From a virus: a DNA stretch of 64,000 nucleotides. Shown here piece by piece: positions 1,014 through 62,446 of the stretch. The stretch is from positions 1 through 64,000 of the IMG/VR virus record IMGVR_UViG_3300048836_000098. The stretch is one strand, 5' to 3'. Below the pieces are notes generated by a model that saw nothing but the letters and a program-made list of their open reading frames with translations, made no database searches and was not told the DNA's origin. The position numbers and the translations under genes are program-made. Position 1 is the first letter of the stretch; every line of letters begins with the position of its first letter.

Positions 1014-1338
1014 ACCTAAAGTCATTATCAGCTAAAGCCCGTTCGTTTGGGCGGGCTTCATGGTGCTAATGGCATCAAATTAAGCAGGAGGAAATTATCA
1101 TGGAATCAAAGCAATACACAGTCGTTGAGGCGTGCAACAACGGAGATATATTCAAGACCAATTTCGAATACCTTTCGGACGCTAACAAATTCGCTTTTAA
1201 CTGCTGGGAAAACCTGACCAACGACGAGAAGAAGAACTGGCACATTTACGTCGGAATAGTTTATTCTTACGAAGATGGCGGCATGGATATCGATATTCCC
1301 AACGGTGCGTTCGACTTTCACGAAACGAGGGCAAAATA

Positions 1339-1566
1339 ATGCAGATGCGTGAAATTCACCCCGAAATATTGAAAGCTATGAAGGAGCGCTACAAGGCCGG
1401 AACTCGCGTTAAGCTGAATTACATGAACGATGTTATCTCTAGCGTTCCTGATGGAACTTTGGGGACGGTGGTATGCGTGGACGATGTTGGAACTATTCAC
1501 GTAAACTGGGATAACGGACGGACGCTCGGTGTCGTTTACAGGGAGGATTCATGTTCGATAATTTAA
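1339..1566 (+). CDS. DUF4314-like small phage protein
   Basis: GTRVKLxxMxD...GTLGTVxxVDDxGTIHVxWDNGxxLGV pattern. Confidence 0.7.
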   Translation: MQMREIHPEILKAMKERYKAGTRVKLNYMNDVISSVPDGTLGTVVCVDDVGTIHVNWDNGRTLGVVYREDSCSII

Positions 1567-1629
1567 CCCGCCTGATGATGGTTCGATGGTGACGAGCCGA
1601 AACTCCCTTATGGGGTCGCGGGAAACCGT
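1567..1629 (+). ncRNA. Hammerhead ribozyme (type I, loop II-3' tail pseudoknot)
   Basis: Stem I CCCGC(1567-71)/GCGGG(1618-22); core CTGATGA(1572-78); stem II GGTTCG/CGAGCC; GAAA(1599-1602); stem III CTCC/GGGG; GTC cleavage triplet (1615-17); loop II ATGGT can pair with ACCGT (1625-29). Intergenic. Confidence 0.85.
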
Positions 1630-1868
1630 AAAATAAAAAACGGAGGAAAGATACCATGTTGAACAGCAAAAGCAAGAACGACCGTATGAACCGCGCAGGA
1701 GCGCAGAAACCGACGAATTACCGCAAGGCATACAACGGCATTGTCAAGCAGTATGAAACGCCGACAGCCGCGCCGAAGATGGTCAGAACGCGCTTATACT
1801 CGGCGGCAAGCATTGACGTATGAATTACTCGTTTTCGCCCATCTCGGTCAATCCTGAACACATTTCTG

Positions 1869-1897
1869 TTGATTGATTTGGTTGTTTGTGGTATAAT
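1869..1897 (+). promoter_or_regulatory. sigma-A promoter with extended -10
   Basis: TTGATT-17 nt-TATAAT with TGTGG immediately before the -10; upstream of the gene run that contains the RAMP gene. Confidence 0.7.
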
Positions 1898-2734
1898 GTG
1901 AACGATATGAAAGGATGGTGTGATTTATGATCGAAATCGTTAAACAGCAGGAGCTAGACATGCGCGAAGGAACTGATTGCGCGTTCTGGGAAACAGTGGT
2001 CATGACGAGGTTTATGGACTTCATCGTGGTAGAAAAGTATAGGCGTTCGTCTGGTTGGTTCGGCACGGAAATCGATATCAGGCTTCGGGCGTGGTTCAAG
2101 GACGGCGAAGAAGCGAGAGCCGATAAGTGGTATGAGTTGCTTTGCGCAGGAGAAGAATATTGCCTCGAAGATAAGATGCGAGAGGCGTTTGATTCCGAAC
2201 AGGAGGTACAATGATCGCTATATTTGTCTTGCTCGCAGGATTTGCGATGGTGTGTTTTGCATGACAGGAAAGGATAAACCAGTATGACTATTGACAATAT
2301 CGTTATTTCGTTCGCATGCTTTGCTCTCGCAGTGCTCAATGTTTTTGTTTCGGAGTTATCTCACATCGACGGAAAGCGCGTGATCGAATCGATGTTAATG
2401 GGCGACGCTCTGATGTTTGCTTTTCTTGGAGCGTTTGCGCTGATTCCATGTTGAGGACGGTTGAATTTTCAGATTCTAAGGACTTCGCAGAACGAATGAT
2501 GAAAGATTTAGCGGATCGCAAAAAGGCTTATGACCGTTTGGATCGCGACCTTGCTTTCGATCATCATCGGAGACAGCAAAAGAAATTGCGTCGTTATGGC
2601 GCGTACAGATGGAGGTAAACATGAAACTCGAAGATAGGCGCATGGGCGCAATCGTTGCAATCGTCATCATGTGCGTTATGGCGGCGGTTTGTCTGGTGAT
2701 GTTTATCAAGGAACTATTTTAAGGAGGAAACAAA

Positions 2735-3088
2735 ATGAAATCAATCTATAATGCCAGAATCAAAAGCACGTCTCTCGGCACGGAGGATCACGGAATATTG
2801 ACGTTCTACTTGCACCTCGAATGGAACGGCGGTGGATGTGGTTTCGGCGGGTACGCGCTTGACGAATATGACAAGGCAATGGACAAGCGGATTGCTACAG
2901 CTCGTGGGTTGCAATGTATTCAAGAAGTCATGCGCGTGGTTGGCGTTAGCTCATGGGAGTCGCTTGCGGGTAAATATATCCGCGTTGAGCAAGACGATTC
3001 AGAATATACAATTCACAAAATCGGCAATCTGATGGAAGATAATTGGATCGACCTTAAAACATTCTGGAAATCGGATAAGGAGGGTTAA
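2735..3088 (+). CDS. Phage hypothetical protein immediately upstream of the RAMP gene
   Basis: Strong RBS (AAGGAGG); 117 aa with GCGFGGY motif; 4 nt gap to the next ATG. Confidence 0.7.
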   Translation: MKSIYNARIKSTSLGTEDHGILTFYLHLEWNGGGCGFGGYALDEYDKAMDKRIATARGLQCIQEVMRVVGVSSWESLAGKYIRVEQDDSEYTIHKIGNLMEDNWIDLKTFWKSDKEG

Positions 3089-3092
3089 TTTT

Positions 3093-3716
3093 ATGAAATC
3101 AATCAAAGCACGAATCACATTCACAGAAGAAGTTCTCGGAACATGCGCGGGTGATCCTAGAATCCATGAAGAGTTCATTGCATCAAAAGCCCCGAACGCT
3201 CTGAATATGGAAGAAGAAGTTGCCGCGCTCGGTGTAGATGAAGTTGTCAAGAACGGCATGACGGTATTCCCGCGAGACAATCAAGACCGACCGTTTCTCT
3301 ACGACTACCAGATCAAAGGTTTCTTTAAGGACGCATGTTCGATGTTGTCAAGATGCTCCAGCAAGGACGCGAACGGCAAAAAACAGGCGGTCAACGAATC
3401 GTCCAAGATCACGGCATTCAAAAAGGTGATCGACGGTATGATTTTCGTAACACCAAGACAGATTCCGTTCGTGTTCGATGGTGCTGTTGGGAACTGCCAG
3501 CGACCACTCAGAGCGCAGACGGCACAGGGTGAGCGAATCGCCCTTGCAAACAGCGAAACCATTCCTGCGGGCGCGTACATTGACGTTGAGATCGTTCTGT
3601 TGAATGAAGCGTATGAATCGGCTGTCATGGAATGGCTGGACTACGGCAAATGGCGCGGCATTGGTCAGTGGCGAAATTCCGGCAAGGGCGCGTTTACTTA
3701 CGAATTGCTGAAATAG
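3093..3716 (+). CDS. Stand-alone Cas7/RAMP-superfamily protein (Vipr-like), putative RNA-binding effector
   Basis: 207 aa. N-terminal beta strand ARITFTEEVLG; PFLYDYQIKGFFKDAC resembles the RAMP P-x-I-x-x-S-x-x-KG-x-x-R helix motif; C-terminal glycine-rich loop GKWRGIGQWRNSGKGAF followed by a final strand. No other cas gene in the window. Confidence 0.8.
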   Translation: MKSIKARITFTEEVLGTCAGDPRIHEEFIASKAPNALNMEEEVAALGVDEVVKNGMTVFPRDNQDRPFLYDYQIKGFFKDACSMLSRCSSKDANGKKQAVNESSKITAFKKVIDGMIFVTPRQIPFVFDGAVGNCQRPLRAQTAQGERIALANSETIPAGAYIDVEIVLLNEAYESAVMEWLDYGKWRGIGQWRNSGKGAFTYELLK

Positions 3717-4140
3717 TTGCGACGGCAAATCCTTGCATCGTGAGCAACAGCACAGCAAGGAACTGAATATCTCCGCAAAGGCATTTGAATAGCGATACAA
3801 GGCAACGGCACTGTACGGACGAGCAGGGACTGCACGGCAATGGAAGAGTTCGGAAGGGCAGAGTTAGCAAAGGCAACGCTTAGAATCGAGAGGCGATGGA
3901 GTAGCAAGCCGAAGAGAAGCGCAGCAAAGGCAAGGCGTTGAAACGGATAGCAAAGGCAAGGCACCGTCTAGCACAGCGAGAGCGAGGCATGGCGGAGCGT
4001 AGCAACAGCATGGCAATGATTGGAGAAGCGGAGTTCGCAACGGATTAGCCAAGCATTGAGTCGCAAAGCAACAGAGAGGCATAGACCAGAATTGAATCGC
4101 AACAGCATAGCTTGTCTAGGCATGCATAGCCATGGCACAG
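3717..4140 (+). repeat. Degenerate 5-nt-periodic array (NG[C/A]-NN) punctuated by 6-nt GCRAnR units; candidate guide-RNA array
   Basis: Anchors at 3719,3744,3775,3802,3837,3867,3893,3924,3950,3976,4002,4037,4068,4099,4129. Between anchors a G falls about every 5 nt, e.g. gcaaag-gcaag-gcacc-gtcta-gcaca|gcgaga-gcgag-gcatg-gcgga-gcgta. Begins 2 nt after the RAMP stop. Confidence 0.85.
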
Positions 4141-4145
4141 ACCTC

Positions 4146-4174
4146 TTGACAACCTCGCGCACTTGCTATATTCT
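4146..4174 (+). promoter_or_regulatory. sigma-A promoter bounding the 3' end of the array
   Basis: TTGACA (4146-51), then TGcTATATT / TATTCT at 15-17 nt spacing. Confidence 0.55.
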
Positions 4175-4181
4175 TTTATTT

Positions 4182-4279
4182 GGGACGCAAACCATTCACG
4201 GTGGCGCGATCCAAGTGAATACGGCTCGTCCCCTCAAAGTCCGCAACGGTGTGCCGTGAACACACCCGAAGCGGATTTT
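4182..4279 (+). ncRNA. Candidate two-hairpin structured RNA or leader
   Basis: GGGACG/CGTCCC, ATTCAC/GTGAAT and TGG/CCA nested; second hairpin AAAGTCCGC/GCGGATTTT plus GGTGTG/CACACC ending in a T run. Confidence 0.5.
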
Positions 4280-4362
4280 CTTGTTGAGAAAAGTATATAT
4301 TATTTTGATTTTGCTATTTACAAGCACTTCCAAGTATGTTATAGTAAGTATAGGAGAACGAA

Positions 4363-4536
4363 ATGAAGATTCCGAAAGCGGCAATCGCATTAAATCGTAG
4401 TACAAAGACAATCCGCACTTGGATTAAGAGCGGTATTCTTCATGCTACAAAGTTGGGAAGAGATTGGGAAATCTCCGAAGAAGAAGTTGACCGGATTAAG
4501 CGCGACGGTCTGGAACTCAAACGGCAAGATGAATAA
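4363..4536 (+). CDS. HTH_17/excisionase-like DNA-binding protein (57 aa, not in ORF track)
   Basis: RBS AGGAG; MKIPKAAIALNRSTKTIRTWIKSGILHATKLGRDWEISEEEVDRI. Confidence 0.75.
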   Translation: MKIPKAAIALNRSTKTIRTWIKSGILHATKLGRDWEISEEEVDRIKRDGLELKRQDE

Positions 4537-4545
4537 GGAGATTAT

Positions 4546-5358
4546 ATGAATACTGATATTCAAATTTTTAACAACGAACAATTTGGGAACGTTCGGGTTA
4601 TTGATCTAGGCGGTGAACCGTGGTTTGTTGCCAAAGACGTTTGCGAGGCGTTCAATGACACAAACCACATCAGAAGCGTTGGCCGGATCGATGATTCCGA
4701 TAAATGCGTGATTCAGGTTATTGACAACCTCGGAAGAACACAGAGCGCAACAGCGGTAAATGAGTCTGGATTATACTTGCTATTGTTCGGAATGCAACCG
4801 CAAAAGGCAAACAATAGTGGGGTGTCCGATGCGTACCCCATCGAGGTTCAGAAAAGAATCGATAGGTTGCGAGATTTTAAGCGGTGGATTACTCACGATG
4901 TTCTTCCATCTATTCGCAAGCACGGCATGTACGCAAAGGACGAACTACTCGACAATCCCGACCTGCTGATTGAGGTTGCAACCAAGCTAAAGCAGGAACG
5001 CGACGCTAGACTTTCCCTCGAAGCAGAGAACGCCGCTATGCTTCCAAAGGCAGATTTCTACGACGCGGTAATCGAAAGTTCCGACACCATCGAAATGGCA
5101 ACCGTCGCAAAGATTCTGAATGTTGGGATCGGTCGCAATAGACTGTTTGAAATTCTACGTGAACAAAAGATTCTTAGGGATGATAACACCCCATTGCAGA
5201 ATTACGTCGATCTTGGTTGGTTCAAGTGCGTCGAGAGCAAATACACTAAACCAGACGGCGGAACATTCATCAACGTCAAGACCGTCGTTTATCAAAAAGG
5301 TATCGATGGAATATTAAAGTTGCTTAAAGATAAATATAATTTGAAACCGATTGTTTGA
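4546..5358 (+). CDS. Phage antirepressor (BRO-N plus KilAC/ANT)
   Basis: IQIFNNEQFGNVRVI..EPWFVAKDVC; FKRWITHDVLPSIRKHGMY; PKADFYD..IGRNRLFEILR. Confidence 0.92.
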   Translation: MNTDIQIFNNEQFGNVRVIDLGGEPWFVAKDVCEAFNDTNHIRSVGRIDDSDKCVIQVIDNLGRTQSATAVNESGLYLLLFGMQPQKANNSGVSDAYPIEVQKRIDRLRDFKRWITHDVLPSIRKHGMYAKDELLDNPDLLIEVATKLKQERDARLSLEAENAAMLPKADFYDAVIESSDTIEMATVAKILNVGIGRNRLFEILREQKILRDDNTPLQNYVDLGWFKCVESKYTKPDGGTFINVKTVVYQKGIDGILKLLKDKYNLKPIV

Positions 5359-5372
5359 GTAGGGGTATCTAT

Positions 5373-5942
5373 ATGTCTGAAAGAAAACCCATATCAAAGA
5401 AATTGCGCTTTGAGATATTCAAGCGCGATGGATTTACTTGCCAGTATTGCGGAAAGATGTCGCCTGACGTTGTGCTAGAGGTTGATCACATTAAGCCAGT
5501 TGCAAGCGGTGGCAAAAACGACATGCTCAACCTTGTTACGGCGTGTTTGTCATGCAATCGCGGTAAGGGTGCAACCGAATTAAAAGACGAATCAATGGTG
5601 ATTAAGCAACAGAAGCAGCTTACCGAAGCAAACGAAAGACGGTTGCAGTTGCAAATGATGCTTGAATGGAAAGCGGAACTTGCTCGTCTTGTTGAGGATC
5701 AAGTGGATTATATCTGTGGCGTTTTCTTTAGTACCTATAAGCACGTATTGCAGGATCACGAGAGGCAGAATATAAAGTCACTAATAAATCGGTTTGGATT
5801 TAACGATGTTTGCGAGGCTGTTGACATTTCAATATTGAAATACAATTATTATTATTACGCACTTGAAAAACTTGGCGGCGTTTGCTATAACCGTAAAAAC
5901 GGAATAAGGAGTGTTAAACATGGCAATCAAACGAATCGTTAG
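5373..5942 (+). CDS. HNH endonuclease-domain protein
   Basis: RDGFTCQYCG...LEVDHIKP...NLVTACLSCNRGKG. Confidence 0.88.
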   Translation: MSERKPISKKLRFEIFKRDGFTCQYCGKMSPDVVLEVDHIKPVASGGKNDMLNLVTACLSCNRGKGATELKDESMVIKQQKQLTEANERRLQLQMMLEWKAELARLVEDQVDYICGVFFSTYKHVLQDHERQNIKSLINRFGFNDVCEAVDISILKYNYYYYALEKLGGVCYNRKNGIRSVKHGNQTNR

Positions 5943-8773: not shown

Positions 8774-10399
8774 ATGCCATACGACGATTTTGAGAGCATG
8801 CTCTACGAAGAAGTTCCTGAAAAGCCTATCCCGCCACAACCGCAGGAGAAGCCCGTAGAGCGATTTAAGAGTGAAGACGCACAAACTGACGCTCGCGACG
8901 AGATTCCGGTTCCAGACGAGCCTCCTGCCGCCAGACGGTACGAACCAATGCAGTTGGAATCTCCAAGACGCATTGAACCCGAAGAAATCCTGACGTTGCC
9001 CCATAGCGGAGACGCTGAACGTTCGGTTCTTGGTTCGATGCTGATTGACACAGACGCTTGCGAACTGGCTTGCATACTACTGTCGGAGGAAGATTTCTAC
9101 GTTCCCGCAAATGCGAAAGTATTCAAAGCGATTAAAGACCTCGTATCGAAAAACAAAGCGGTTGATCTTGTCACGGTAACAGAGGTTCTTGAACATCGCG
9201 GAGAAATTGATTTAGTCGGCGGAATACTCTATCTGACCGATCTTGTTACGTTTGTCCCTACGGCGGCGAACGTCAAGCACTACATCGACATTGTGAAAGG
9301 TCACAGCAATCGACGAAGCGCGATTAAGGCAAGCAATGAAGTTATACGCGATGCAATGGGCGGCGGGACTGAATACGTCAAGATTGCGCAAGCATCCGTT
9401 GAGGAAATCGAATCGAGCCGAATAAATGAAGTCGAGCGAGTTGGAATGAGAGCGATGCAAGCCGCAATCGAAATGGGTGACGCAAAAGCCGCTGACTTCT
9501 CGACTGGATTTCCAGAGGTAGATAAACTGCTCAAGGGTGGGTTCCGTCGCGGCGAGGTCGTAGTCGTTGGAGCAAGACCATCGCAGGGAAAGAGCAGTTT
9601 CGCAATGAACATCACGGATAGCTTTCTAGAAAAGAATCACGTCGTGTACATCCAGACAATGGACGATAGCGAGGTTGCGTTCCTGCAAAGGCTTGAAACC
9701 AAGATGTCACTTGTGAGCGGTTCGGAAATCGAGCGGTTTAAGTCAAGCACTATGGGTCAGTCGTTTTGCCTAGCGTTTATGGCGGCAGCAGAAAACTTAC
9801 AGAATAAGCCGCTCTACATTGACGACTCGCCATCGGTGACAGTCGAGTACATCAAGGCAAAGTGCAAGGCGATTAAGCGAATTGAAGGAACGATTGATCT
9901 GGTGGTCGTGGATTACATCGGTCAGATTGATACGAGTGGAACACAATCGGGCAAGCGCAGAGCGGGATCAAGAGCAGAAGAAGTCGCGCAAGTCAGTAGC
10001 AAGCTAAAGATTCTAGCGAAAGAACTGGATTGCGTCGTGATGGTAATCGTGCAGTTCAATCGGTCAATCGACAGCAGACAGGATAAGCGACCGAACATGT
10101 CCGATCTCAAAGAGTCTGGTGGAATCGAAGCGGACGCGAATATTATCATTTGTCCGAGTCTGCCGTACAAGGACGATCCGAGCCGCGATCCATCGGAAAC
10201 TGTGTTCTACGTCTTGAAGTCAAAGGGAAGTCAAACAGGGAGCATCGAAACAATCAAGTGGGACGGAGAACACTATCTGTTTTACGAGGGCGAGCATCCT
10301 AGAAACGCAAGGTTCAAGCGGAACAAGCCAAGCGAGAACGGTTTTATAGATGTGCCGACAGAAGAAATACCGGAAGAATTTACAGAAGAGAAGGAGTGA
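8774..10399 (+). CDS. dnaB: Replicative DNA helicase
   Basis: LPHSxDAERSVLGS N-domain; Walker A GARPSQGKS; VVVDYIG; RPNMSDLKESGGIEADA. Confidence 0.95.
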   Translation: MPYDDFESMLYEEVPEKPIPPQPQEKPVERFKSEDAQTDARDEIPVPDEPPAARRYEPMQLESPRRIEPEEILTLPHSGDAERSVLGSMLIDTDACELACILLSEEDFYVPANAKVFKAIKDLVSKNKAVDLVTVTEVLEHRGEIDLVGGILYLTDLVTFVPTAANVKHYIDIVKGHSNRRSAIKASNEVIRDAMGGGTEYVKIAQASVEEIESSRINEVERVGMRAMQAAIEMGDAKAADFSTGFPEVDKLLKGGFRRGEVVVVGARPSQGKSSFAMNITDSFLEKNHVVYIQTMDDSEVAFLQRLETKMSLVSGSEIERFKSSTMGQSFCLAFMAAAENLQNKPLYIDDSPSVTVEYIKAKCKAIKRIEGTIDLVVVDYIGQIDTSGTQSGKRRAGSRAEEVAQVSSKLKILAKELDCVVMVIVQFNRSIDSRQDKRPNMSDLKESGGIEADANIIICPSLPYKDDPSRDPSETVFYVLKSKGSQTGSIETIKWDGEHYLFYEGEHPRNARFKRNKPSENGFIDVPTEEIPEEFTEEKE

Positions 10400-27190: not shown

Positions 27191-30100
27191 CTATCTGCCG
27201 AGATAATTGATGGTTGAGAAGTCTCCGCTACGTATATAAGTCCTTTGAATATTGCTGATCGCCTTCGTAGTGACTTGTTGGGTAGAGAAGTTGACCCCTG
27301 TTACCACGCTAAAACTTGTCGTTCCGCTGGAAAGCAAATAGGCTGTATTTTCATCCAAAGAGGTGCAGACTGAACGAGAACGCCACGAAGCCGAATACGG
27401 TTGCACGATAAATGAGTTTTGAACAATCAATTCCCTGACATACAGAACATTTGCTTGCGCAGTAGACGCATTAAGCCAACCGCTGATATAGGTTCCGATC
27501 GCATCGATCTTTACATAGTCAGCCTTAATCGAAGCGACAGATGCCGCCGCCGCGTTTGCCGTAACTGTAACAGAAGCGACTCTTCCGTCAACCTCGGCAA
27601 GCAACGTAGCGGAAGCAAAGTTGGCGTAAGCCTCTGCTCTTAATCCAGCCACACTAGACGAGACTAACGTACCAGTCTCGTCTTTTGTGTAATATCCCGC
27701 GAGAAGCGATAGCCTAGCGAAGTTTGCGTTTGTCCATGCTTCAAGACCCGCTCTAGCGGTAGATATTTTTCCATCGAGGTCTACGTAGTTGTGTTCAACG
27801 ATTGCGGTTAAGTTCGCTTCTTGCTCGTTCAGATCAACATAAACTTGTCCGATAGACTGGCGAGTTTCCCCTGCAAATGTTCTTAAATATTCCGCTTCAA
27901 ATCCAATAGTAGCGCGAACGTCATCAAATTCTTGAAAGAACCTTGCGTTAGAGATAATCTGTTCTTCCAAAGCGTCAGCAAGCGTACCACCGCCACCGCC
28001 GCCGCCACCTCCACGACGACCAGAGCTAGAGCCAGAACCAACGGAAATATCATCCGCACTGATTCTGCCTTTCGCATCGAACGCTGGCATTTCATCGGTT
28101 TTCTTGTAGATTAGCTTAAATATGTCGCGCACGTTGGCGTGAATATCACCGACCTCTAATGTTGTGTGGTTCAGCGGATTCCAAACGTCATACTCCCAAT
28201 TCACGATGCGTAGCAGTTCGCTTGTTTCTTCGCCTTTTTCGGAATCGACGTAGTATGCTTTTACAACAGAGTTCAGATCGAATACGTCAAACTCATAGCC
28301 GCCAATCTGTCTGCGATCAACAACTTTGTTCTCATATTTGACCGTCTTGCGCGGACGGCAGACCTTGCTTACTTCGCGTCTAGCCCAATTAAGAAGCTGT
28401 AGCATCCCGCCATCATCGAGAGTATCATATATGTTCGGTTGTTCTGCGTAGCCCTCATAAATCGTGTCAGTGTACGAGAAATCATCAACGTAGCGTTTGC
28501 CGCCGTTGACAAGAGAGATATTCAACTTATCTGCGCCTAAAGGATATAGCCTAGTAATCATATCTGCATTCCATATAACGCTAGGCATGCTCGTAATATT
28601 CTTGCCGCGCTTAATCGTAAATCCGTTCCACGTATTGAAGTCAGAACCTTCTTTGTCCTCGTCTCGATAGTGGATAACCTTGTGGAGACTGTCGAAAACT
28701 ATCACGCCGCCGTACAGTTCTTGGATTGATTCGATGTTCGAGAAAACATCCTTGGCATCCGTTTCAGCGTTAAATACACCCATCTCGTTTCCACTTACAA
28801 AGTGCGCAGTAGCACCCGCCGAGATCGACCCGCCGAGATTCAGAATCGTGATATCAAGGTTGCCATCACCATTTGTAGCGATACCGACAATACGTGCGCT
28901 CACGGGCGCGTCAGACCATCCAGAAGCGTCGTAGATAGAAATACTATAGCCTTGCTCCCAAGTGCTCGCGTAGGCGAAGCCAGCGTCCGTAGAAGGCACT
29001 GTGAACTTAGTTTCCAACGCCGCGCCGGAATTGCTGAACGCAACAACGCAATCATTCGAGATCGCTCCGCCGCTATTTGCGAACTTGACCGTGATCCTGC
29101 TGTCAGTCGCGTTGAAATACGAAACGGCGATAGAATCGGGAGCGTTCTCCCATTGCGGAACAGAATCGAGCGTAGAAATGTCAGCAATATAAAGCGTGTT
29201 ACCGACAGCCCAATTCAGAGCGCGTCTAAAAGAACTATCCGTATTCTGCGCGAGGTCAAACACCCAACTGTCGCTAGAAGCCTTATACGTGCCGTAGAGA
29301 GCAGTGAAGTCACGAACAGCCGTTGCACAGACAGCATCGACTTGCGACGTATTGAAATCGGCGTGAATCATGTCGCACGTTCCAAGCATCCAACCAGTAT
29401 CGCGAATCACAGACCACAAAGCGTAACCAGCAGAGCCACGCGGCATTAGAACGTCGCGCTCGTCCATCACAACGGAATCTTCGTACTGAACGCTGTTGAT
29501 TGATAGCTTATATTTATTGTTCGACTTCGGGAGAATCATCACAGTGTGATCATCGATAGATTCAAGACCCGCACCGAACAGAGCGGTTGCGCCAGAAGCG
29601 ATAGTCCCGCCGTAGTTATAGAATGTGATTATAATCGAATCTTCTGTCTTGGTGATCGAAACTGGATTGATATATTTCACCGCGCTTAACCACGTATCAG
29701 ACGGTTCAAGGATATAGATCGTATCGGTAACGTCCCACAACAGAGCCTTTGCAAAGTTCTCGTCAGAGGAAGCGATAACAACCGTAGCAAGCACTGCAAC
29801 CTTATTCGTTCTGTCATACTCCGCGCATTCAGTCGTAGCCGTTGCCTTGCTCTTGCTGTAGGTCATTACGTTATGCGCTTGGACGTATTTTTTTTTGAGC
29901 GTGTATTGTTCCTCTACAAGCGTTACAGTGGCGATACGAGCATCTTCGCCTTCAACGCCATAAACGATAGCATCGTCAGTCAGAGCCGTATAGACGCGAC
30001 CATTAACGTGATAGCGATTCTCTGGATTCTTAATCAGTTGGAACTTTTCGGAAGAAACGAGCATCTTAAACGTGAACGAGCTTTCGCCATTCTGCACCAG

Positions 30101-61769: not shown

Positions 61770-61845
61770 TGGCGAATGATCTTGGACTTGAACCAAGACG
61801 CTTCCGATTAACAGCCGGACGCTCTTCCGATTGAGCTAATCATTC
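61770..61845 (-). tRNA. tRNA-Asn(GTT)
   Basis: GAATGAT/ATCATTC acceptor; TCCGG-CTGTTAA-TCGGA anticodon arm; GGTTCAAGTCC; G discriminator plus CCA. Confidence 0.92.
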
Positions 61846-62372: not shown

Positions 62373-62446
62373 TGGAGCGGATATTCGGTAACGATCCGAA
62401 CCTAACAGTTTGGAAAACTGCTGTGCTTCCAATACACCATATCCAC
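62373..62446 (-). tRNA. tRNA-Gly(TCC), atypical T loop
   Basis: GTGGATA/TATCCGC acceptor; GCAGT-TTTCCAA-ACTGT; T loop ATCGTTA; U discriminator plus CCA. Confidence 0.85.

What the first reader, a model, noticed from the sequence alone, without database searches (positions are those of the whole stretch)
3093..4140. Stand-alone Cas7/RAMP gene plus adjacent periodic RNA array: candidate minimal RNA-guided phage system
Seen in sequence: a 207-aa ORF with RAMP hallmarks (N-terminal strand ending LG, a YQIKGFFKDAC helix, C-terminal Gly-loop GKWRGIGQWRNSGKGAF), followed 2 nt later by about 420 nt of periodic non-coding sequence. No cas1/2/3/5/6/10 and no CRISPR repeat-spacer array appear in 64 kb. 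Established: Cas7-family RAMPs polymerise along guide RNA with a fixed nucleotide footprint per subunit. Inference: the protein oligomerises on the array transcript at one subunit per pentamer; conserved positions bind protein and variable positions form a gapped target code. With no nuclease in the locus, it would likely silence DNA or RNA of competing phages or host defence genes. From memory, and needing verification, this resembles the phage VIPR systems described with GGY-NN repeats. The grammar here is looser (NG[C/A]-NN) and has 6-nt punctuation, so it may be a distinct subtype.
Basis: partly seen in the sequence, partly recalled or inferred. Interest (0 to 1): 0.96.

Follow-up and report, generated by a model that had tools for sequence, protein, structure and literature searches.

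The report
Gut-phage VIPR system, punctuated guide array
A small Cas7-like protein gene in this phage is followed by a 430-base array of five-base repeats, which makes it a divergent copy of the RNA-guided "VIPR" systems described in 2026 preprints: real and well formed, but a known kind.

Summary
ORF 3093-3716 (207 aa) folds confidently (pLDDT 91) as a minimal single-RRM RAMP. Its best solved matches are all CRISPR Cas7/Csm3 proteins (Z 13.8). The next 427 nt are the only strongly 5-nt-periodic stretch in the window (lag-5 z = 6.1).

The pairing is conserved. All 80 viral loci with a relative have an array next to the gene. Among 79 genome loci, 66 have one directly downstream and about 11 more have one upstream. 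All 135 arrays that were called lie on the gene's strand.

VIPR systems (Vipr RAMP plus pentamer vrRNA) were published as bioRxiv preprints in 2026. I located the reference SUSP1 Vipr. It aligns to this family end to end by profile comparison (E 1e-5). Its G-loop reads G-x-G-D-W-R against G-x-G-Q-W-R here. The two proteins also share the same six nearest viral structures.

The repeat is relaxed to n-G-[C/A]-N-N, and only the G is constrained. About one unit in six is a hexamer, which gives a 26/31/36-nt super-period. I found no conserved accessory gene and no conserved 3' tail. No targets or RNA evidence could be obtained.

This scan has already filed the same punctuated gut-phage type on other DNA. 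Verdict: new member of a known kind, moderate interest.

The parts
3077..3084 (+). Ribosome-binding site (AAGGAGGG) of the vipr-like gene. It overlaps the end of the upstream 117-aa gene, so the two genes look co-transcribed.
   Evidence: Read directly from the sequence.
3093..3716 (+). vipr-like gene: a 207-aa minimal RAMP with a single RRM core, a thumb hairpin at residues 133-157 and a G-loop at residues 185-199 that contains G189-I-G-Q192-W193-R194-N195.
   Evidence: AF2 model, pLDDT 91.4. Foldseek against PDB puts type VII Cas7 and Csm3 on top at E 1e-8. VIA-align gives Csm3 Z 13.8, and the top 30 hits are all CRISPR RAMPs. hhalign to SUSP1 Vipr gives E 9e-6. Invariant and near-invariant residues come from alignment A1.
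3717..4143 (+). Candidate vrRNA array of about 80 units of n-G-[C/A]-N-N. It is purine-rich and predicted to be unstructured.
   Evidence: Autocorrelation and shuffles. PWM and segmentation. RNA fold z = +0.97 against shuffles. Homologous arrays lie beside the gene in related loci.
3923..4133 (+). Best-phased part of the array. Hexamers start at 3923, 3949, 3980, 4001, 4036, 4067, 4098 and 4128. Most read nGCAA[A/C] and are usually followed by a canonical GGCAn pentamer. They delimit super-units of 21-35 nt, mostly 26 or 31.
   Evidence: Viterbi path. Lag-26 z = 5.4 and lag-31 z = 4.7. The family-wide logo reads nGCAAa-GGCAn.
4146..4174 (+). Promoter-like site (TTGACA-17-TATTCT) immediately after the array.
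   Evidence: Consensus scan, 10 of 12 matches. The region holds no more such sites than shuffles do. Function not shown.
4182..4285 (+). Two hairpins, the second followed by a U-run. This is probably the terminator of the vipr-array transcript and/or a leader of the next gene. It is not a conserved vrRNA tail.
   Evidence: Fold z = -2.2. No sequence similarity in 160 related loci.

Best explanation
This is a VIPR-type RNA-guided system of a gut phage.

**Proposed mechanism.** The 207-aa protein is a Vipr-like minimal RAMP. The array directly behind it is transcribed with the gene. By analogy with the solved SUSP1 complex, protein subunits polymerise along the RNA, one per five-base unit. Each subunit grips the constant G (and the C/A after it) and exposes the variable bases. 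Those bases pair in a gapped fashion with double-stranded DNA of a competing phage, satellite or prophage and block its transcription.

**What is particular to this family**
- Only one G per unit is fixed.
- Roughly every sixth unit carries one extra base, giving about 31-nt super-units.
- There is no conserved partner (vap) gene and no conserved structured tail.

**Shown here:** the fold, the relation to Vipr, the array grammar, and the conservation, strand and constraint pattern of the array.

**Inferred:** transcription, filament assembly, DNA targeting and silencing.
For: **Fold.** The AF2 model has pLDDT 91.4. The best PDB matches are exclusively CRISPR RAMPs: type VII Cas7 at E 1.3e-8 and Csm3 9g9a_D at Z 13.8, rmsd 2.9 over 150 residues.

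**Link to a bona fide Vipr.**
- I found the SUSP1 Vipr at KT454805 28474-29061(-). The residues published for it (H17, E71, M72, R138, C173, D177, W178, R179) are all in place.
- Its flanking intergenic DNA carries GGT-NN repeats.
- The family profile A1 aligns to it over 174 columns at E 9.1e-6, probability 83%. It aligns to a type II family profile at E 6.8e-5. In both, G-x-G-D-W-R lies over G-x-G-Q-W-R.
- A model of the SUSP1-type Vipr (pLDDT 94.2) has a 58%-identical member of this family as its second-best hit among viral structures (E 2.9e-8, TM 0.60).
- The two models share the same six top BFVD hits.

**Array association.**
- All 80 IMG/VR loci have an adjacent array.
- 66 of 79 genome loci have one downstream and about 11 more have one upstream.
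- All 135 called arrays are on the gene's strand.

**Constraint.** Between close relatives, the G at position 2 changes at 1.4% and every other position at 6-7%. Indels peak at 5/10/15/20 nt and at 26/31/36/41/62 nt.

**Protein and RNA agree.** In the hhalign alignment, the residues that read the first G in SUSP1 (H17, D177) are T17 and Q192 here. W178 and R179 are kept as W193 and R194. The first G is correspondingly degenerate in the array.

**Supporting context.** The array RNA is no more structured than shuffles. There is no Cas1, no Pfam RAMP and no CRISPR array in the record. The gene sits in a phage early/replication module with Ant, HNH and DnaB.
Against: - Sequence similarity to published Vipr is visible only by profile-profile comparison (probability 63-83%). 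HMMER finds nothing usable: 7-13 bits, and no match in either direction in a whole-record search.
- Canonical GGY is a minority (15 of 64 pentamers).
- There is no conserved tail and no vap gene.
- No target was found under any tested rule: target periods of 2 to 5 nt per repeat (0 to 3 skipped bases), contiguous NNN reading, and flexible offsets at hexamers. These were run against 2.3 Mb of related phage DNA with shuffled controls. Five exact or near-exact pattern scans of IMG/VR and of 301 genomes drawn from the family of a Faecalibacterium MAG also gave nothing beyond chance.
- No RNA data exist for this phage.
- I could not see the papers' figures or tables, so I cannot confirm that this family is one of the seven published types.
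Confidence: 0.8

Rival explanations
1. The protein and RNA form a RAMP-RNA filament with a job other than DNA silencing. It could be a decoy that soaks up or mimics host CRISPR components (an RNA/protein anti-CRISPR), or an RNA-targeting complex.
For: The closest solved folds are the RNA-targeting Csm3 and type VII Cas7. No DNA target was found. Neither a nuclease nor a DNA-binding partner is conserved beside the gene.
Against: The array bears no likeness to CRISPR repeats. The nearest characterised relative, SUSP1 Vipr, binds dsDNA and silences transcription. The G-loop W-R pair used there is conserved here.
Confidence: 0.08
2. The periodic tract works as DNA rather than RNA, for example as phased protein-binding or bent DNA near the replication module. 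The 31-nt super-period equals three helical turns of 10.3 bp.
For: The super-period is 26/31/36 nt. The locus lies in an early/replication region with Ant, HNH and DnaB.
Against: All 135 arrays lie on the coding strand of the RAMP gene, and in this window the array starts 2 nt after its stop codon. That fits a co-transcribed RNA. The sequence is strongly strand-asymmetric, with 64% purines. The partner protein has an RNA-binding RAMP fold. The array moves together with the gene between otherwise unrelated neighbourhoods.
Confidence: 0.05
3. The locus is a decaying or inactive remnant of a VIPR system with no current function.
For: The repeat is degenerate, irregular 4- and 6-nt units occur, and no targets were found.
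Against: The ORF is intact. The family is very large: at least 8000 clusters at 90% identity and 1680 at 50%. It has invariant G-loop and thumb residues. The phased G is under clear purifying selection, and the irregular units are themselves patterned and conserved across the family.
Confidence: 0.04

Closest known systems
VIPR systems as a class (Vipr RAMP plus vrRNA; seven types; bioRxiv 10.64898/2026.04.26.720920), especially the forms with relaxed repeats (YNNNG/NNNNG) and 'staggered' contiguous vrRNA arrays
   Same: A minimal single-RRM RAMP with thumb and G-loop, encoded by a phage. There are no other cas genes and no CRISPR array. An adjacent same-strand array of pentanucleotide repeats alternates a fixed core with variable bases. 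In the paper's notation the repeat here, [C/A]-N-N-n-G, corresponds to YNNNG/NNNNG.
   Different: I could not verify from the text held that this protein family is among the 2,664 Vipr sequences or seven types. Position 3 is C/A rather than a pyrimidine. A conserved nGCAA[A/C]-GGCAn marker recurs every 26/31/36 nt. Whether that is what the paper calls staggered arrays is unknown, because the figure is not held.
Type II VIPR of Escherichia phage SUSP1 (KT454805, Vipr at 28474-29061; cryo-EM in bioRxiv 10.64898/2026.04.26.720927)
   Same: Similar size (195 against 207 aa) and the same order of secondary-structure elements. End-to-end profile alignment at E about 1e-5. G-loop G-x-G-[D/Q]-W-R. Shared nearest structural neighbours. 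One array unit of 5 nt.
   Different: SUSP1 has strict GGY/NN repeats. Its vrRNAs are about 100 nt, with 9-16 repeats each, and end in a conserved structured tail. It carries a vap1 partner gene and has vrRNAs on both sides of the operon. Here only one G is fixed, the array is one continuous run of about 80 units with hexamer punctuation, and no tail or vap is conserved. The residues that read the first G (H17, D177) are T and Q.
Non-canonical VIPR-like arrays found by entropy periodicity (bioRxiv 10.64898/2026.10.21.760802: GAC/NN, CAC/NN, WGT/NN, TGH/NN)
   Same: A period-5 array with a core that departs from GGY, next to a Vipr-like fold.
   Different: That paper describes those motifs as repeated 10 times per element. 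Here the run is about 80 units with a second-level period. The text does not list an n-G-M core.
Csm3 / Cas7 backbone subunits of type III and type VII CRISPR-Cas effectors
   Same: Same fold (Z up to 13.8), including the thumb and glycine loop that hold a guide RNA at a fixed footprint per subunit.
   Different: Sequence identity is only 9-18%. There is no Cas10, Cas5, Cas6 or Cas1 and no CRISPR array. The footprint implied by the array is 5 nt, not 6. The gene is phage-encoded and stands alone.

Membership tests
VIPR systems (class) | Protein is a minimal RAMP: one RRM core, a thumb and a glycine-rich loop, with no second RRM | tested here: met
   AF2 model, pLDDT 91.4, shows beta1, helix 71-85, hairpin 133-157, helix 172-188, G-loop 185-199 and a last strand at 201-205. 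All top PDB matches are Cas7/Csm3/Cas5/Cas6.
VIPR systems (class) | Structural kinship with a characterised Vipr | tested here: met
   The model of the SUSP1-type Vipr finds a 58%-identical member of this family as hit 2 of BFVD (E 2.9e-8, TM 0.60). Both models share the same six top viral hits.
VIPR systems (class) | Sequence homology to characterised Vipr proteins | tested here: inconclusive
   hhalign gives E 9.1e-6 (probability 83%) and E 6.8e-5 (probability 63.5%), end to end, with the G-loop aligned. HMMER profile-to-sequence gives only 7-13 bits, and whole-record searches find nothing.
VIPR systems (class) | Adjacent tandem pentanucleotide array with a fixed core alternating with variable bases (GGY/NN or the published relaxed forms NNNGG, YNNNG, NNNNG) | tested here: met
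   PWM: n (A .25, C .14, G .34, T .28), G .94, C .61/A .32, then N, N. This is the relaxed form, and canonical GGY occurs in only 15 of 64 pentamers. Substitution rate is 1.4% at the G against 6-7% elsewhere. An array is present beside the gene in nearly all of 159 loci.
VIPR systems (class) | No other cas genes and no CRISPR array at the locus; viral or proviral context | tested here: met
   The record is a 73.7-kb virus record. No Cas1 or Pfam RAMP match. No CRISPR-like repeats. Atlas clusters of the family are 88-98% viral.
VIPR systems (class) | The array is transcribed and the RNA co-purifies with the protein | not testable with these tools
   No RNA run holds this phage. Only indirect support exists: same strand in 135 of 135 arrays and a start 2 nt after the stop codon.
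VIPR systems (class) | Variable bases match targets in competing mobile elements under the one-nucleotide-skip rule | tested here: inconclusive
   No excess over shuffled guides in 2.3 Mb of related phage DNA at target periods of 2-5 nt per repeat (0-3 skipped bases), with contiguous reading, or with flexible hexamer offsets. There were 0 exact hits in IMG/VR for four guide-derived patterns. In 301 genomes, one 3-mismatch hit was matched by one control hit. The true targets may simply not be in the data searched.
Type II VIPR (SUSP1 / P. fulva clade) | Discrete vrRNAs of 9-16 strict YNNGG repeats, each ending in a conserved structured tail | tested here: not met
   The array is a continuous run of about 80 units with no recurring tail. 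The element after the array (4182-4285) is not conserved in relatives.
Type II VIPR (SUSP1 / P. fulva clade) | A vap1 accessory gene in an operon with vipr | tested here: not met
   The genes flanking vipr in this window have no homologue in the 160 related loci, except for Ant, which turned up somewhere in 25 of them. The largest cluster of immediate neighbours covers 27 of 160.
Type III / VII CRISPR-Cas (Csm3/Cas7) | Part of a multi-subunit effector encoded with Cas10 or Cas14, Cas5 and Cas6 next to a CRISPR array | tested here: not met
   No CRISPR array, Cas1 or further RAMP in the record. Neighbours are Ant, HTH, HNH and DnaB.

The most novel reading that the evidence does not exclude
This very abundant gut-phage family could be a VIPR subtype with its own code. 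Only a single G anchors each unit. One extra nucleotide occurs about once per six units, which is the number of Vipr subunits per helical turn in the published filament. Under this reading the ~31-nt super-unit would be the functional module. It would act either as a one-turn mini-guide cut at the conserved nGCAA[A/C]-GGCA marker or as a register correction that lets an 80-subunit filament form. The target-reading rule might then differ from the published one-nucleotide skip, which would explain why no targets were found. Indels of whole super-units (26/31/36/62 nt) show that the module is a unit of evolution.
Probability: 0.25. Interest if true: 0.6.

Novelty: new member of a known kind. Interest (0 to 1): 0.35.

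Why it matters
VIPR is a newly described class of RNA-guided DNA recognition proposed to predate CRISPR. This locus belongs to a family that is very large in gut and rumen viromes: at least 8000 clusters at 90% identity and 1680 at 50%. It lies so far from the reference proteins that ordinary sequence searches do not connect them.

It offers a natural experiment on how the protein's grip on the RNA can change. The D-to-Q and H-to-T changes go with loss of the first G. It also shows a second-level punctuation of the guide array whose role is unknown.

For annotation, the result gives thousands of 'hypothetical' phage proteins and their 'intergenic' neighbours a testable function. It does not by itself open a new question, because the class, relaxed repeats and contiguous arrays are already in print, and this scan has filed the same type before.

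Tried and rejected
**Family and homology searches**
- Pfam and PHROGs gave no family for the protein.
- PDB sequence search gave only noise.
- Whole-record HMMER searches of SUSP1 with this family's profile, and of this phage with the type II profile, found nothing.

**Other RNA elements**
- Rfam found nothing in 1300-4500 even at E <= 1. This includes no hammerhead at 1567-1629.

**Target searches, all negative or at chance level**
- 10-repeat windows at target periods of 2-5 nt per repeat (0-3 skipped bases) against shuffled guides.
- Three-letter contiguous reading. This gave 11 hits against 5.7 +/- 1.7 exact 15-mers. The hits were purine-rich and did not extend.
- Module chaining with offsets of -1 to +3 at hexamers (one search failed through a script bug).
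- Four exact IMG/VR scans with long uninterrupted guides of relatives.
- One 12-repeat guide of this window with up to 3 mismatches in 301 genomes drawn from the family of a Faecalibacterium MAG. It gave one hit, and the reversed control also gave one.

**Weak hint only**
- N4N5 dinucleotide use correlates best with codon positions 1-2 (r = 0.38 against -0.07 and -0.47 for the other frames).

**Expression and context**
- No RNA holder is listed for this stretch. All runs held under a tenth of its words, so I laid no reads.

**Readings rejected**
- A coding reading of the array is rejected. A 5-nt period is not a codon period, and the short ORFs over it lie on the opposite strand.

Full report
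**What is there.** The window is the first 64 kb of a 73.7-kb linear virus record that CheckV estimates to be 58% complete. ORF 3093-3716 (+) encodes 207 aa behind a good ribosome-binding site. It matches no Pfam or PHROG family.

From 2 nt after its stop codon to about 4143 the sequence has a 5-nt period. Lag-5 identity is 0.405 against 0.271 +/- 0.022 in shuffles (z = 6.1). In sliding 100-nt windows this tract is the single outstanding periodic stretch of the 64 kb. The tract is purine-rich, with A 141, G 133, C 91 and T 59. As RNA it folds no better than shuffles (z = +0.97).

**The protein.** The family is very large. Members come overwhelmingly from viral contigs and gut or rumen MAGs.

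With a 57-sequence alignment (A1) AlphaFold2 gives a confident model (pLDDT 91.4, pTM 0.84). Foldseek against the PDB returns only CRISPR RAMPs, with type VII Cas7 at E 1.3e-8 followed by Csm3. The Foldseek-independent scan gives Csm3 at Z 13.8, and every one of the top 30 hits is Cas7, Cas5 or Cas6. The fold has a single RRM, a long thumb hairpin (133-157) and a glycine loop (185-199). The invariant or near-invariant residues are L15, G16, G76, K79, R137, R140, R148, S154, Q192, W193, R194, N195 and G199.

**Gene and array travel together.**
- In 80 IMG/VR loci encoding 60-66% identical proteins, every one has a periodic tract beside the gene. It usually starts at the stop codon, and in six loci it starts about 550-600 nt further on.
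- In 79 loci from bacterial genome bins (48-68% identity), 66 have the tract directly downstream. About 11 more have it upstream.
- All 135 arrays that pass a model score are on the strand of the gene.
- Nothing else is conserved. The genes flanking vipr in this window have no homologue in the 160 loci, apart from Ant in 25 of them. The largest cluster of immediate neighbours covers 27 of 160.

The module is therefore the gene plus the array, without a fixed partner gene.

**Array grammar.** Viterbi/EM training on 81 arrays gives this unit:

| Position | Composition |
|---|---|
| 1 | n: A .25, C .14, G .34, T .28 |
| 2 | G .94 |
| 3 | C .61, A .32 |
| 4 | N, A-biased (.53) |
| 5 | N |

- About 16% of units are hexamers.
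- Pooled autocorrelation peaks at lag 31 (0.427, as high as lag 5), with shoulders at 26 and 36.
- Anchoring on hexamers gives the logo nGCAAa-GGCAn followed by four to six degenerate units.
- In this window there are 64 pentamers, 13 hexamers and 3 tetramers. Hexamers lie at 3923, 3949, 3980, 4001, 4036, 4067, 4098 and 4128 in the best-phased half.
- Between phages whose genes are at least 93-97% identical, the phased G changes at 1.4% and all other positions at 6-7%.
- Indel lengths peak at 5, 10, 15 and 20 nt and at 26, 31, 36, 41 and 62 nt.

Both the pentamer and the super-unit are therefore units of evolution, and only the G is strongly constrained.

**Comparison with what is known.** The relevant preprints say the following:
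- VIPR systems were reported in 2026. They consist of a Vipr RAMP plus vrRNAs of GGY/NN pentamers.
- A one-nucleotide-skip code reads double-stranded DNA.
- The outcome is silencing of competing phages and satellites.
- There are seven types, some with relaxed repeats (NNNGG, YNNNG, NNNNG), 'staggered' contiguous arrays or ribozyme-separated arrays.
- Cryo-EM shows one protomer per repeat in a filament of six subunits per turn.
- A later preprint recovers period-5 arrays with non-canonical cores.

I located the reference protein in phage SUSP1 (KT454805, 28474-29061, minus strand). The eight published contact residues that I checked sit at the stated positions, and GGT-NN repeats with a tail fill the flanking intergenic DNA.

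Three lines link that protein to this family:
- The profile of this family aligns to it over its whole length (E 9.1e-6, probability 83%). It also aligns to a profile of 34 type II relatives (E 6.8e-5, probability 63.5%). In both, G-V-G-D177-W178-R179 lies over G-I-G-Q192-W193-R194.
- A model of the SUSP1-type protein (pLDDT 94.2) has the same order of secondary-structure elements.
- When searched against all viral structure predictions, that model finds a member of this family as its second hit (E 2.9e-8, TM 0.60). Both models have the same six proteins on top.

Plain HMMER does not see the relation. This family may therefore have been missed or reached only late by the published PSI-BLAST. 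I could not check the paper's tables.

**How protein and RNA fit.** In SUSP1 the first G is read by H17 and D177, the second G by R138 and W178, and the pyrimidine by a pocket that includes R179. In the alignment, H17 and D177 correspond to T17 and Q192 here. W193 and R194 are kept. The array mirrors this: the first position is degenerate and the second is an almost invariant G. This is an inference from an alignment of modest confidence. The thumb arginine could not be placed.

**Mechanism.** The best reading is a VIPR system. Its array is co-transcribed with the gene, and the protein polymerises on it at one subunit per unit. The variable bases then address foreign DNA. Two things are unexplained:
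- The role of the extra base about once in six units. This coincides with six subunits per filament turn, but also with three turns of B-DNA.
- Whether the array acts as one long guide or as 14 short ones.

**What I could not show.** No targets emerged from any search. No RNA data exist for this phage.

**Earlier notes of this scan.** The scan has already filed many VIPR loci. Three of them are the same punctuated gut-phage type on other DNA. My tests agree with those notes on the class and on the punctuation. I did not reproduce the suggestion that guides spell rival replication genes.

**Verdict.** It is a divergent new member of a kind published in 2026. Interest is moderate. The residual novelty lies in the super-unit grammar and in the size of the family.

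Noticed in passing
window 1567-1629: Another first-stage note calls this a hammerhead ribozyme. Rfam covariance models give no match in 1300-4500 even at E <= 1, and none at gathering score in the whole window. It lies 1.5 kb upstream of the array, not inside it, so it is not the 'ribozyme-interspersed array' form of VIPR.
   Followed up: partly
window 4146-4285: A promoter-like TTGACA-17-TATTCT is followed by two hairpins, the second with a U-run (fold z = -2.2). The element has no counterpart in 160 related loci, so it looks locus-specific (a terminator or leader) rather than part of the guide system.
   Followed up: partly
window 2735-3088: The 117-aa gene that ends 5 nt before the vipr start matches PHROG 30930 (unknown function, E 6e-39). 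It is absent from all 160 related loci, so it is not a conserved accessory gene.
   Followed up: yes
window 4363-5942 and 8774-10399: The genes downstream are an HTH_17 excisionase-like regulator, a Bro-N/KilAC anti-repressor (Ant), an HNH endonuclease and, further on, a DnaB helicase. The locus therefore sits in the early/replication region.
   Followed up: partly
proteins P0193 (458 aa) and P0196 (432 aa), relatives from the representative search: Some relatives are twice as long and match the query in two stretches, which suggests tandem-duplicated or fused Vipr-like proteins.
   Followed up: no
L091 and L092 (one 86-kb MAG contig, JAGCAN010000001.1): The same contig holds two identical copies of the gene and an 850-nt array 48 kb apart. 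This is probably a concatemeric assembly of a circular phage genome.
   Followed up: no
L094, L099, L111, L113, L114, L124, L131, L143, L156, L159: In these relatives the periodic array lies upstream of the gene instead of downstream. In L007, L019, L026, L028, L032 and L046 it starts about 550-600 nt after the gene.
   Followed up: partly
arrays of L003, L007, L011, L019, L032, L036: Identical runs of 4-5 units (for example GGCAC AGCTC GGAAT TGCTG) occur in arrays whose genes belong to different lineages (below 85% nt identity). This hints at exchange of array segments or shared popular guides.
   Followed up: partly
window 61770-61845 and 62373-62446: tRNA-Asn (GTT) and tRNA-Gly (TCC) genes lie on the minus strand.
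   Followed up: no
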